Position numbers and translations under genes: made by a program. From the IMG/VR virus record IMGVR_UViG_2585427777_000002, positions 1 through 37,339 of that record: a DNA stretch of 37,339 bases; one strand, written 5' to 3'. The notes beneath the pieces were generated by a model. That model was not told the DNA's origin. It did no database searches and worked only from the letters and a program-made list of their open reading frames with translations. Below, piece after piece: positions 6,240 to 6,552 of the stretch. The DNA comes from a virus (Duplodnaviria > Heunggongvirae > Uroviricota > Caudoviricetes). Every line of letters begins with the position of its first letter. Position 1 is the stretch's first letter.

Positions 6240-6269
6240 GGTTTGCAATTACCAAATGGAGTGCTTATA

Positions 6270-6286
6270 TTTACCTTTGCGGTAAA
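6270..6286. promoter_or_regulatory. operator-like palindrome TTTACCTTTGCGGTAAA at the Bro-N antirepressor promoter
   Basis: Perfect TTACC-N5-GGTAA immediately after -35 TTGCAA (6243..6248), 17-bp spacer, -10 TATATT (6265..6270). Confidence 0.6.
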
Positions 6287-6552
6287 TTTACATCGCACTC
6301 CTCTTGTGCCATAGTAATCGGGCACTGGCAAAATCCAGTGCCGGGATTGGTCTCCCGGATTACTACAGAGGCACATATGCCGCATAAGCGGTTTTTTTAT
6401 GTGTAAAGCGCACCTATTCTATGGTGGGCTGTGTGGGGGCACCGAAAGGTGCGCCGGGTTCCTTTGTAGCCGGTAAGACCAACTCTGCACAGTTCACCAC
6501 CATCTGATTGGTCTCAGCGGTGGTGATTAACCTAACTACAAAGGTGATCGCT
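6287..6552 (+). promoter_or_regulatory. structured 5' leader with intrinsic terminator/attenuator upstream of the Bro-N antirepressor gene
   Basis: Helix AGTAATC...GATTACT enclosing hairpins GGCACTGG-caaaat-CCAGTGCC and CCGGGA-ttggtc-TCCCGG; hairpin plus T7 run at about 6377..6397; homologous copy in inverted orientation at 8904..9173 with compensatory stem changes. Confidence 0.5.

What the first reader, a model, noticed from the sequence alone, without database searches (positions are those of the whole stretch)
6243..6552. Conserved structured leader with compensatory stem changes and an attenuator in front of both antirepressor genes
Both large antirepressor genes are preceded by a homologous leader of about 270 nt (6287..6552 and inverted 8904..9173). 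It starts at the operator and folds into a closing helix AGTAATC/GATTACT around two perfect hairpins, followed by a hairpin with a T7 run about 150 nt before the start codon, with an overlapping alternative hairpin that could act as antiterminator. Between the two copies the attenuator stems differ in sequence but keep pairing (CCGC/GCGG versus CCACG/CGTGG), and so does a downstream hairpin (GGCACC/GGTGCC versus GGTCC/GGACC). That covariation argues for selection on RNA structure, either a cis-acting attenuator or a short RNA of about 120 nt, as known for immI-type control of antirepressors in P22 and P1.
Basis: partly seen in the sequence, partly recalled or inferred. Interest (0 to 1): 0.65.

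Follow-up and report, generated by a model that had tools for sequence, protein, structure and literature searches.

The report
Duplicated C4/IsrK antirepressor RNA switch
The conserved "leader" before both antirepressor genes is a known phage RNA control module, an IsrK-like decoy RNA followed by the C4 antisense RNA that masks the antirepressor's ribosome-binding site; it occurs here twice with different target specificities and is real and under selection, but ordinary in kind (phages P1/P7, Gifsy-1).

Summary
Both antirepressor genes (Bro-N type 6553-7245 +, AntA type 8903-8253 -) follow a homologous, strongly structured leader with real compensatory changes.

The leader is not a new attenuator. 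Each copy is a tandem of two curated Rfam families: isrK (RF01394, 74.7 and 67.7 bits) and C4 antisense RNA (RF01695, 78.6 and 61.2 bits). This is the layout of the P1/P7 immI operon and the Gifsy-1 isrK locus: operator, promoter, a1-b1 hairpin RNA with a leaky terminator, C4, then a2 and b2, with b2 on the ant Shine-Dalgarno.

In 82 distinct homologous leaders the C4 segments a' and b' co-vary with both target sets. Cognate b'-b2 duplexes average -12.0 kcal/mol against -6.3 when permuted.

The two window copies share the a sites but are orthogonal in b. No conserved leader peptide exists.

Departures from the described systems:
- Two or three mutually orthogonal cassettes occur per phage.
- The ant ribosome-binding site is masked directly, without an icd/orf45 relay.
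- A moderately supported helix flanks the terminator.

Verdict: new member of a known kind; modest interest.

The parts
6243..6271 (+). Candidate upstream promoter of copy 1 (-35 TTGCAA 6243-6248, -10 TATATT 6266-6271). Its -10 and predicted start overlap the operator.
   Evidence: Consensus scan, 9/12 matches. A TATNAT hexamer abutting the operator is conserved in operator-bearing leaders. Function is inferred, by analogy with the C1-controlled P2c4 of P1.
6271..6285 (.). Operator palindrome TTACCTTTGCGGTAA (copy 1)
   Evidence: TTACC-N5-GGTAA: 12 exact and 4 one-mismatch sites in the window against 0.66 expected. Sites cluster around the HTH_3 repressor-like gene 32371-32955.
6287..6315 (+). 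Conserved sigma-70 promoter of the IsrK-like RNA (-35 TTTACA 6287-6292, 17-nt spacer, TG-extended -10 CATAGT 6310-6315). Predicted start is G6322.
   Evidence: The -35 and -10 are conserved in 121 distinct upstream regions, with A2 at 99% and T6 at 100% of the -10. It aligns with P1c4/P51b of P1 and with the Gifsy-1 isrK start, where the published mutant numbering fits.
6322..6398 (+). IsrK-like a1b1 RNA, copy 1. Hairpin 1 is 6322-6341. Hairpin 2 is 6342-6357 with a1 TTGGTCT 6347-6353 in its loop. b1 CTACAGAGG is 6363-6371. The intrinsic terminator is 6379-6392 plus U7 6392-6398.
   Evidence: Rfam isrK RF01394, 74.7 bits against a gathering score of 50. c4-a1b1 RF03163 scores 39.9 bits at 6309-6361, below its gathering score of 46.7. 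Hairpin 1 is 100% paired with 4 of 7 pairs changed on both sides. Terminator scan.
6371..6404 (+). Helix T0: 6371-6377 pairs with 6398-6404 and encloses the terminator and U-run. It can form only in read-through transcripts.
   Evidence: 86.5% of cells paired; 33 cells with changes on both sides against 12.4 in shuffles (0 of 500 shuffles reach it). The G-C to A-U change between the two window copies falls here. Support is moderate, because the alternating purine-pyrimidine sequence also pairs when slid by 2 columns.
6417..6504 (+). C4 antisense RNA, copy 1. P1 is 6422-6438/6483-6499, P2 is 6439-6452, P3 is 6453-6474. b' CCTTTGTAG 6461-6469 lies in the P3 loop and a' AGACCAA 6476-6482 in the junction. 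Predicted mature RNA is about 6423-6501.
   Evidence: Rfam C4 RF01695, 78.6 bits against a gathering score of 45. P1 is 97.8% paired with 10 of 17 pairs changed on both sides; P2 has 5 of 5. Mature ends are inferred from the annotated P1 c4 RNA.
6494..6526 (+). a2 hairpin: outer stem 6494-6501/6519-6526, inner stem 6504-6507/6514-6517, with a2 TTGGTCT 6508-6514 in and next to the loop. Its 5' strand is shared with the 3' strand of C4 P1.
   Evidence: Present in the minimum-free-energy fold. The outer stem is 91.4% paired with 6 pairs changed on both sides. a':a2 is 88-91% paired across homologues.
6536..6547 (+). b2 target CTACAAAGG 6536-6544, overlapping the Shine-Dalgarno AAGGTGA 6541-6547 of ant1 (ATG 6553)
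   Evidence: Exact complement of b'. Across specificity classes the b2 site ends 7-12 nt before the ATG. Cognate b'-b2 duplexes average -12.0 kcal/mol against -6.27 +/- 0.30 when permuted.
6553..7245 (+). ant1, a Bro-N type antirepressor-like gene (230 aa): the regulated gene of copy 1
   Evidence: Pfam Bro-N, E 1.8e-13. Homologues are annotated as antirepressor or anti-immunity protein.
9175..9189 (.). Operator palindrome (copy 2)
9145..9173 (-). Conserved promoter of copy 2 (-35 TTTACA 9173-9168, -10 CATAGT 9150-9145). Predicted start is G9138.
9062..9138 (-). IsrK-like a1b1 RNA, copy 2: a1 9113-9107, b1 CTAAGTGG 9097-9090, terminator 9084-9068 plus U7 9068-9062
   Evidence: Rfam isrK, 67.7 bits. 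c4-a1b1 scores 38.4 bits, below its gathering score. Coordinates.
8953..9037 (-). C4 antisense RNA, copy 2: b' CCACTTAG 8996-8989, a' AGACCAA 8981-8975. Predicted mature RNA is about 9031-8956.
   Evidence: Rfam C4, 61.2 bits. Coordinates.
8912..8949 (-). Targets of copy 2: a2 TTGGTCT 8949-8943 and b2 CTAAGTGG 8921-8914, which overlaps the GGAG Shine-Dalgarno (8915-8912) of ant2 (ATG 8903)
   Evidence: Own b'-b2 duplex is -12.4 kcal/mol; the b' of copy 1 on this site gives only -4.2.
8253..8903 (-). ant2, an AntA/AntB type antirepressor gene (216 aa): the regulated gene of copy 2
   Evidence: Pfam AntA, E 8.2e-28

Best explanation
Each leader is a P1-immI-type RNA switch that keeps an antirepressor silent.

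Transcription. It starts at a conserved promoter whose +1 is the first base of hairpin 1 (about 6322 and 9138). A second, upstream promoter is overlapped by the prophage repressor's operator.

Short RNA. The first 77 nt form an IsrK-like RNA. It shows a1 in the loop of hairpin 2 and b1 just 3' of it, and it ends at a weak intrinsic terminator.

Read-through. Transcripts that pass the terminator carry the C4 RNA and then the ant mRNA.

Repression. C4 is presumably cut out by RNase P, as in P1. It then pairs through its junction segment a' with a2 (shown in a hairpin loop just 3' of C4) and through its P3 loop b' with b2. Because b2 overlaps the ant Shine-Dalgarno, ant translation is blocked directly.

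Tuning. The a1/b1 copies in the short RNA, or in the same transcript, compete for C4. The ratio of terminated to read-through RNA therefore sets the threshold for Ant synthesis.

Specificity. The two cassettes share a but have orthogonal b, so each C4 should silence mainly its own ant.

What is shown here: family membership, folds, three-way complementarity and its covariation, the position of b2 on the ribosome-binding site, promoter conservation, and the absence of a leader ORF. What is shown in homologues by others: c4 repression of ant in P1/P7, and IsrK/a1:a' pairing and read-through in Gifsy-1. What is inferred: RNA processing, action in trans, the direction of the decoy effect, and the identity of the operator-binding repressor.
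For: Rfam. isrK and C4 score above their gathering scores in both copies, full length and in tandem. The same tandem occurs in Gifsy-1, and C4 plus c4-a1b1 occur in P1.

P1 annotation. The record lists operator Oc4, promoters P2c4 and P1c4, then a1, b1, c4, a2, b2 and icd-ant in the same order and with similar spacing.

Intramolecular covariation in 82 distinct leaders.

Covariation of the antisense pairings (slid controls 30-50%):
- a1:a' is 93.2% paired, with 6 of 7 pairs changed on both sides.
- b1:b' is 86.3% paired, with 9 of 9 pairs changed on both sides.
- a':a2 is 88-91% paired.
- b':b2 is 73% paired in the MAFFT register.

Duplex energies, cognate against permuted, with 0 of 1000 permutations reaching the cognate mean:
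- b'-b2: -12.0 against -6.27 +/- 0.30 kcal/mol.
- b'-b1: -11.65 against -5.04.
- a'-a1: -9.43 against -4.80.
- a'-a2: -9.46 against -5.46.

Specificity classes. At least 14 a classes and more than 12 b classes assort independently, each with matching a1 = a2 and b1 ~ b2.

Target position. b2 ends 7-12 nt before the ATG and covers the Shine-Dalgarno.

Promoter. The -35 and -10 are conserved 17 nt apart, with +1 at hairpin 1.

Experiments in Gifsy-1. IsrK and STnc1160 are abundant RNAs in Gifsy-1 lysogens. Part of the isrK transcripts read through the terminator. The published compensatory pairs G28-C162 and G31-C159 map exactly onto a1:a'.
Against: - There are no expression or processing data for this phage.
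- The thermodynamically best fold of the read-through RNA is the conformer in which a1b1 pair in cis with a'b' and C4 is not formed. The modular fold is 5.6 (copy 1) and 2.4 (copy 2) kcal/mol less stable. The yield of free C4 therefore depends on folding kinetics.
- In Gifsy-1, a1 mutations in cis raise anrP translation, and IsrK was interpreted as an activator that remodels its own mRNA. A simple decoy model does not predict the first result.
- The c4-a1b1 model scores below its gathering threshold here.
- The two cassettes share identical a sites, so they may not be fully insulated from each other.
Confidence: 0.8

Rival explanations
1. Gifsy-1-type self-activation. The read-through RNA is locked in an inactive conformer, with a1b1 paired in cis to the a'b' region. 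The short IsrK-like RNA acts in trans on that mRNA to open it and switch ant translation on. A free, processed C4 repressor plays no essential part.
For: The cis-paired conformer is the minimum-free-energy fold of both window leaders, with the modular fold within 2.4-5.6 kcal/mol. This resembles structures A and B of Gifsy-1. In Gifsy-1, IsrK given in trans raises anrP translation 139-fold.
Against: - The Gifsy-1 mechanism needs orf45, whose stop overlaps the anrP AUG. The homologous ORF is 28 codons in copy 1 and 3 codons in copy 2 and ends far from ant. Its stop lies within 6 nt of the downstream ATG in only 1 of 82 leaders.
- It does not explain why b2, on the ant Shine-Dalgarno, and a2 co-vary with b' and a'.
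- 'orf45' is the C4 RNA read as an ORF, and STnc1160 is a stable RNA in lysogens.
Confidence: 0.3
2. A purely cis-acting transcription attenuator. An antiterminator hairpin that overlaps the terminator decides between termination and read-through into ant.
For: A real intrinsic terminator with a T7 run sits in both copies. Its stems are weak (mean -7.8 kcal/mol), and read-through is documented for Gifsy-1. In copy 1 the terminator's 5' strand is predicted to be 71% paired before the 3' strand is made.
Against: - The proposed alternative hairpin is paired in only 58.7% of cells across homologues, and its central pair forms in 19 of 82.
- The mean probability that the terminator's 5' strand is already paired is 0.42, and it exceeds 0.5 in 16% of leaders.
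- This model leaves the 3' 150 nt unexplained, although that part carries the strongest covariation and the antisense complementarities.
Confidence: 0.12
3. A translated leader peptide (frames 6206..6406 and 8931..9218, or a short ORF starting at the AUG/GUG right after the T-run) controls ant by coupling or ribosome stalling.
For: Both copies have an ATG directly after the T-run, with ORFs of 25 and 26 codons that end at the same TAA.
Against: - Across 82 leaders, no frame of the hairpin 1 to U-run segment is always open (39, 60 and 50 of 82), and lengths fall in all three classes modulo 3.
- ORFs from the post-terminator start range from 2 to 61 codons, 24 have 4 codons or fewer, and 7 leaders have no such start.
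- The A/G of that start co-varies with an upstream U/C as a pair of helix T0.
- The TTG at 6206 lies inside the upstream gene, ahead of both promoters.
Confidence: 0.02
4. A P22-immI-type system, with a sar-like RNA made from the opposite strand across the ant start.
For: The genomic context is comparable: antirepressor genes next to tail-fibre genes. A related phage, TL-2011b, carries an Arc-ant module at the position of copy 2.
Against: The conserved promoter, the T-run and all covarying helices read on the ant sense strand. Rfam matches are on the sense strand only.
Confidence: 0.02

Closest known systems
immI operon of phages P1 and P7 (Oc4 operator, promoters P2c4/P1c4, a1, b1, c4 RNA, a2, b2, icd, ant1/2)
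   Same: - The order of elements and the spacing are the same, and there is a repressor operator upstream.
- C4 matches the same Rfam model at a similar score: P1 68.8 bits, window 78.6 and 61.2 bits.
- a' lies in the junction and b' in the P3 loop.
- b2 lies on a ribosome-binding site and a2 a few nt 3' of C4.
- A terminator-like hairpin with a U-run sits between b1 and c4 in P1 as well.
- Specificity is set by matched changes in all three copies of a site, as between P1 and P7.
   Different: - In P1, b2 masks the ribosome-binding site of icd, and ant is expressed by coupling to icd. Here b2 lies on the ant Shine-Dalgarno itself and there is no icd.
- The regulated proteins are Bro-N and AntA types, not P1 Ant1/2.
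- The host phage is a Uetakevirus-like podovirus prophage, not a plasmid prophage.
- There are two convergent cassettes in one genome.
- The window copies differ only at b, whereas P1 and P7 differ at both a and b.
Gifsy-1 isrK - STnc1160/'orf45' - anrP locus of Salmonella (Hershko-Shalev et al. 2016, PMC4825925)
   Same: - The same two Rfam families occur in tandem before an antirepressor-like gene, and the locus is detectably homologous at the DNA level (67.6% identity).
- The promoter places +1 at hairpin 1.
- The terminator is leaky.
- a1:a' pairing has been verified there by compensatory mutants.
- b2 lies on the anrP Shine-Dalgarno.
   Different: - Gifsy-1 has a 45-codon ORF across C4 whose stop overlaps the anrP AUG, and it is reported to be needed for activation. 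That ORF is absent from both window copies.
- The Gifsy-1 locus sits next to the Q-like antiterminator gene antQ and isrJ. Here the cassettes lie between tail-fibre genes and carry a repressor operator.
- The published model does not treat the 'orf45' region as a C4 repressor RNA.
c4-a1b1 RNA motif (Weinberg et al. 2010, PMC2864571; Rfam RF03163)
   Same: There are two tandem hairpins, with a1 in the second loop and b1 immediately 3'.
   Different: The window copies score 39.9 and 38.4 bits, below the gathering score of 46.7. They fit the isrK model better, because it also includes the terminator.
Phage P4 immunity (CI RNA with seqA and seqC targets)
   Same: A processed RNA from an untranslated leader pairs with complementary sites both upstream and downstream of itself in the same transcript. 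The Gifsy-1 authors drew the same parallel.
   Different: According to the description cited in the Gifsy-1 paper, P4 CI works by premature transcription termination of replication genes, not by masking an antirepressor ribosome-binding site. No P4-specific Rfam family was reported in the scans of this window.
P22 immI (Mnt, Arc, ant, sar RNA)
   Same: It also provides post-transcriptional control of an antirepressor by a small RNA, in a comparable genome position near tail genes.
   Different: From established knowledge, sar is a true cis-antisense transcript from the opposite strand, and Pant is controlled by Arc and Mnt. Here all RNA elements are sense-strand and of the C4 type.

Membership tests
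C4 antisense RNA (Rfam RF01695) | Covariance-model score at or above the curated gathering score (45 bits), full-length match | tested here: met
   78.6 bits (6417-6504 +) and 61.2 bits (9037-8953 -), model positions 1-87 of 87
C4 antisense RNA (Rfam RF01695) | Long closing stem P1 around two hairpins P2 and P3, supported by covariation | tested here: met
   P1 is 97.8% paired with 10 of 17 pairs changed on both sides. P2 is 93% paired with 5 of 5. P3 is 99% paired.
C4 antisense RNA (Rfam RF01695) | Unpaired segments a' and b' complementary to a2 and b2 downstream in the same transcript, with b2 on a ribosome-binding site | tested here: met
   Exact 7-nt (a) and 8-9-nt (b) complements. b2 overlaps the ant Shine-Dalgarno. 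Covariation and permutation tests.
C4 antisense RNA (Rfam RF01695) | Lies upstream of, and on the same strand as, an antirepressor gene | tested here: met
   Bro-N protein 6553-7245 and AntA protein 8903-8253
C4 antisense RNA (Rfam RF01695) | Stable RNA of about 77 nt, cut from a longer precursor by RNase P | not testable with these tools
   Known for P1/P7: Hartmann et al. 1995, seen only as a citation; the paper itself is not held. The mature ends given here are inferred from the P1 annotation.
C4 antisense RNA (Rfam RF01695) | Represses antirepressor synthesis in trans; determines immunity specificity | not testable with these tools
   Needs reporter fusions or superinfection tests
isrK (Rfam RF01394) | Covariance-model score at or above the gathering score (50 bits), full length | tested here: met
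   74.7 bits (6322-6398 +) and 67.7 bits (9138-9062 -), model positions 1-77 of 77
isrK (Rfam RF01394) | Two 5' hairpins followed by a Rho-independent terminator; own promoter with +1 at hairpin 1 | tested here: met
   Hairpins and terminator. Conserved -35/-10 placing +1 at G6322. The start itself has not been mapped.
isrK (Rfam RF01394) | Downstream 'orf45' translationally coupled to the antirepressor gene (Gifsy-1 mechanism) | tested here: not met
   The homologous ORF is 28 and 3 codons in the window copies. Its stop lies within 6 nt of the downstream ATG in 1 of 82 leaders.
isrK (Rfam RF01394) | Hfq binding; short and read-through isoforms | not testable with these tools
   Needs co-immunoprecipitation and Northern analysis
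c4-a1b1 (Rfam RF03163) | Score at or above the gathering score (46.7 bits) | tested here: not met
   39.9 and 38.4 bits (E 6e-8 and 2e-7), full length 1-53. P1 scores 51.0 and Gifsy-1 48.1.
c4-a1b1 (Rfam RF03163) | Two hairpins, with a1 in the second loop and b1 just 3', both complementary to the neighbouring C4 | tested here: met
P22 immI / sar | [quoted passage not shown] | tested here: not met
   All conserved signals and covarying helices are on the sense strand

The most novel reading that the evidence does not exclude
The a and b sites may form a combinatorial two-part address. At least 14 a classes and more than 12 b classes assort freely among phages. Phages stack two or three cassettes that are always orthogonal in b.

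In this prophage the two cassettes share a. That would mean either that b alone gives insulation, or that the shared a site deliberately couples the two antirepressors, so that one C4 or IsrK pool senses the other.

It would also follow that IsrK is simply the a1b1 sponge for C4. Gifsy-1 'orf45' would then be the C4 RNA, which would recast the published IsrK mechanism as relief of C4 repression.
Probability: 0.35. Interest if true: 0.5.

Novelty: new member of a known kind. Interest (0 to 1): 0.3.

Why it matters
- Annotation. These RNAs are not annotated in the GenBank or RefSeq records of phiV10, TL-2011b or the E. coli prophage examined. A homologous leader nevertheless occurs in 225 phage records. 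Matches to the wider 3.4-kb region around it occur in 908 of 5426 complete E. coli genomes. Naming the RNAs explains an otherwise puzzling 270-nt 'untranslated leader' and predicts which prophages can or cannot silence each other's antirepressors.
- Linking two literatures. The comparison connects P1/P7 c4 with Salmonella IsrK, which a 2025 review still lists separately.
- Natural orthogonal parts. The large set of matched a and b variants is a ready-made collection of orthogonal antisense-target pairs.
- Limits. None of this changes the known principle. It extends a known module to another phage group and to a multi-cassette arrangement.

Tried and rejected
- Antiterminator hairpin. GGCA/TGCC overlapping the terminator is not conserved (58.7% paired). 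The per-sequence probability that the terminator's 5' strand is sequestered averages 0.42.
- Closing helix AGTAATC/GATTACT. It is identical in both copies, weak, and shows little covariation: cognate -3.32 against permuted -2.62 kcal/mol. Its 5' strand lies between the conserved -10 and +1, so only transcripts from the upstream promoter would contain it.
- Leader peptides in three frames, the post-terminator AUG ORF and an orf45-like ORF: all rejected.
- Other C4 targets in the window. There is no other place with an a site and a b site together.
- First operator pattern. A 6-nt spacer found nothing; the true spacer is 5 nt.
- RNA annotation in public records. None was found.
- Hartmann et al. 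1995 on RNase P processing of C4. The paper is not held, so this rests on the citation and on general knowledge.
- Literature on C4 or IsrK in epsilon15/phiV10-like phages. Nothing relevant was found.
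Full report

Yes. The window is an epsilon15/phiV10-like (Uetakevirus) prophage region. Two convergent antirepressor-like genes lie between tail-fibre genes: ant1 at 6553-7245 (+), of Bro-N type, and ant2 at 8903-8253 (-), of AntA type.

The sequences ahead of them align from the palindrome TTACCTTTGCGGTAA (6271-6285 and 9175-9189) to about 20 nt before each ATG. 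They also show up as inverted repeats 6261-6365/9095-9199 and 6469-6527/8930-8988.

Both leaders fold far better than dinucleotide shuffles, with z-scores of -6.0 and -5.8.

**2. What is it?**

A scan of the window against Rfam at curated thresholds gives two families in tandem in each leader:
- isrK (RF01394) at 6322-6398 and 9138-9062;
- C4 antisense RNA (RF01695) at 6417-6504 and 9037-8953.

A third model, c4-a1b1 (RF03163), matches the two 'perfect hairpins' full length but below its threshold, at 39.9 and 38.4 bits against 46.7.

The same tandem precedes the antirepressor-like gene anrP in Gifsy-1. In P1, C4 plus c4-a1b1 precede icd-ant. The P1 record annotates operator Oc4, promoters P2c4 and P1c4, then a1, b1, c4 RNA, a2, b2 and icd, in that order. 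The window has the same order and similar spacing.

Weinberg et al. 2010 described the a1b1 motif as two hairpins with an occasional third stem that joins the 5' flank to the 3' side of hairpin 2.

**3. Anatomy of the antisense pairing** (coordinates)

Copy 1:
- The P3 loop of C4 carries b', CCUUUGUAG (6461-6469).
- Its exact complement b2, CUACAAAGG (6536-6544), overlaps the Shine-Dalgarno AAGGUGA, 9 nt before the ATG.
- A second copy, b1, CUACAGAGG (6363-6371), pairs with b' through one G-U pair. It follows hairpin 2 of the IsrK part.
- The junction segment a', AGACCAA (6476-6482), is complementary to a1, UUGGUCU (6347-6353), in the loop of hairpin 2.
- a' is also complementary to a2 (6508-6514), which is shown in the loop of a hairpin just 3' of C4.

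Copy 2 has the same a sites but a different b set: b' is CCACUUAG, and b1 and b2 are both CUAAGUGG.

Predicted duplexes:
- Each C4 on its own b2 gives -12.0 (copy 1) and -12.4 (copy 2) kcal/mol.
- Each C4 on the other cassette's b2 gives -4.2 (copy 1 C4) and -5.3 (copy 2 C4) kcal/mol.
- The a duplexes are identical at -9.2 kcal/mol.

**4. Comparative test**

Two pattern scans of viral contigs gave 127 distinct leaders; 82 were aligned (A2).

Intramolecular helices:

| Helix | Cells paired | Pairs changed on both sides |
|---|---|---|
| Whole canonical fold | 93.7% (36-42% when slid) | 28 of 51 |
| Hairpin 1 | 100% | 4 of 7 |
| C4 P1 | 97.8% | 10 of 17 |
| C4 P2 | 93% | 5 of 5 |
| a2 hairpin, outer stem | 91.4% | 6 |

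Antisense pairings:

| Pairing | Cells paired | Pairs changed on both sides |
|---|---|---|
| a1:a' | 93.2% | 6 of 7 |
| b1:b' | 86.3% | 9 of 9 |
| a':a2 | 88-91% | 6 of 7 |
| b':b2 | 73% (limited by alignment register) | 8 of 9 |

A register-free test with RNAduplex gives cognate against permuted means as follows, with 0 of 1000 permutations reaching the cognate value in any case:
- b'-b2: -12.0 against -6.27 +/- 0.30 kcal/mol.
- b'-b1: -11.65 against -5.04.
- a'-a1: -9.43 against -4.80.
- a'-a2: -9.46 against -5.46.

At least 14 a classes and more than 12 b classes occur, and they assort independently. Across the specificity classes, b2 ends 7-12 nt before the ATG. This is strong comparative evidence that the pairings are selected.

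**5. Transcription signals**

In 121 distinct upstream regions, a -35 element and a -10 element are conserved 17 nt apart, with A2 at 99% and T6 at 100% of the -10 hexamer. This holds even where everything else differs. It places +1 at the invariant G that opens hairpin 1, which is 6322 and 9138 in the window.

The position matches P1c4/P51b of P1 and the Gifsy-1 start. With +1 at Rfam position 1, all published Gifsy-1 mutant names (C18, G28, G31, A107, C159, C162, G173, C175) fall on the right bases.

The operator abuts the -35 element. It also overlaps the -10 and start of a second, upstream candidate promoter (6243-6271). This resembles the C1-controlled P2c4 of P1.

The palindrome TTACC-N5-GGTAA occurs 12 times exactly and 4 times with one mismatch in the window, against 0.66 expected. 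It flanks an HTH_3 repressor-like gene at 32371-32955. Calling it the prophage repressor's operator is therefore reasonable, but it is an inference.

It is weak and shows little covariation. It can exist only in transcripts from the upstream promoter.

**6. Alternatives tested**

- The terminator stems are weak, averaging -7.8 kcal/mol. This fits the partial read-through shown for Gifsy-1.
- No leader peptide is conserved. Frames are interrupted, lengths fall in all classes modulo 3, and ORFs from the AUG/GUG after the T-run range from 2 to 61 codons.
- The A/G of that start co-varies with an upstream U/C as part of a helix I call T0. It pairs 6371-6377 with 6398-6404, encloses the terminator and U-run, and can form only after read-through. 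Support is moderate: 86.5% paired, with 33 cells changed on both sides against 12.4 in shuffles. Its role is unknown.

**7. Mechanism**

The best-supported model is the P1 one. C4, cut from the read-through transcript, masks the ant ribosome-binding site through b':b2, helped by a':a2. The a1b1 RNA competes for C4. The leaky terminator and the repressor-controlled upstream promoter set the balance.

Direct experimental support exists only in homologues:
- c4 of P1/P7 represses ant (summarised).
- In Gifsy-1 the compensatory pairs G28-C162 and G31-C159 are a1:a' pairs.
- IsrK and STnc1160 are abundant in Gifsy-1 lysogens.

Two points keep the details open. First, the read-through RNA's best fold is the conformer in which a1b1 pair in cis with a'b'. 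The modular fold is 5.6 kcal/mol less stable in copy 1 and 2.4 in copy 2, as with structures A and B of Gifsy-1. Second, the Gifsy-1 data show IsrK as an activator and show higher expression for a1 mutants in cis. A plain decoy model does not fully predict the second result.

The Gifsy-1 relay ORF 'orf45' starts at the AUG in the 5' strand of C4 and spans the C4 RNA. It is absent from both window copies, at 28 and 3 codons. Here ant must be controlled at its own ribosome-binding site.

**8. What is different from the described systems**

- ant is masked directly, without an icd or orf45 relay.
- Two convergent cassettes regulate different antirepressor types (Bro-N and AntA) that share an identical C-terminal ~79 aa.
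- In 11 loci with two or three cassettes, b' always differs within a genome, while a is shared in 4 of them. P1 and P7 differ at both a and b.
- The helix T0 flanks the terminator.

These are variations on a known design.

**9. Verdict**

It is wrong in mechanism and incomplete, because the C4 RNA and its targets were missed.

The elements are members of known, curated families. They are unannotated in the phage and E. coli records examined. I rate this a new member of a known kind, with interest of about 0.3.

Noticed in passing
window 5891, 6271, 7419, 9175, 9761, 25063, 28271, 29951, 30013, 32301, 33013, 33074 (exact sites); 7318, 28253, 31916, 32253 (one mismatch): The palindrome TTACC-N5-GGTAA occurs 16 times against 0.66 expected. 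It precedes several small genes around the ant cassettes (ORFs 5982-6239, 7474-8109 and 9796-10323). It also clusters in the early region, including the gap between a divergent 76-aa ORF (31986-32216 -) and an HTH_3 protein (32371-32955 +). These are probably the prophage repressor's operators, forming a regulon that includes both ant leaders.
   Followed up: partly
window 6990-7268 and 8230-8508; ORF 5982-6239: Ant1 (Bro-N) and Ant2 (AntA) have unrelated N-terminal domains but an identical last ~79 aa, encoded by a 279-nt inverted repeat at 95%. The 85-aa ORF just upstream of leader 1 is a free-standing paralogue of that C-terminal domain, at 42% identity and E 6e-16. It could be a competitor or modulator of the antirepressors.
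   Followed up: partly
window 6371-6377 with 6398-6404 (copy 2: about 9089-9083 with 9062-9056): Helix T0 encloses the IsrK terminator and its U-run and can form only in read-through RNA. It is not part of the Rfam isrK or C4 models. Covariation is moderate and its function is unknown.
   Followed up: partly
L173 (Gifsy-1, NC_010392) 1195-1440: The published 'orf45' of the Gifsy-1 isrK locus begins at the AUG in the 5' strand of the C4 RNA (RF01695 hit 1297-1380) and runs across it to the anrP AUG. The published compensatory pairs G28-C162 and G31-C159 are a1:a' pairs. b2 (AUCACCG) lies on the anrP Shine-Dalgarno.
   Followed up: yes
loci L006, L009, L024, L036, L044, L055, L058, L091, L118, L135 and the window: In phage contigs with two or three IsrK-C4 cassettes, the b' loops always differ within a genome (11 of 11). 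The a sites are shared in 4 of 11. L135 has three cassettes, all different.
   Followed up: partly
window 9337-9735: This ORF consists only of a P22_AR_N antirepressor N-terminal domain, E 2.4e-43. The homologue in an E. coli RefSeq genome is flagged as an incomplete pseudogene. It is probably the remnant of a third antirepressor gene next to cassette 2.
   Followed up: no
window 8116-8134 (+) and 8203-8186 (-): Back-to-back strong intrinsic terminators lie between the two convergent units. One follows ORF 7474-8109 and the other follows ant2.
   Followed up: no
window 7474-8109: A 211-aa ORF with no Pfam match lies between the two cassettes. It is preceded by its own operator copy (7419-7433) and a one-mismatch copy (7318-7332).
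   Followed up: no
window 25400-25476: A tRNA-Arg (anticodon tct) gene lies in the prophage, with an operator copy at 25063. Gifsy-1 also carries a tRNA-Arg shortly downstream of its isrK-anrP-isrJ locus.
   Followed up: no
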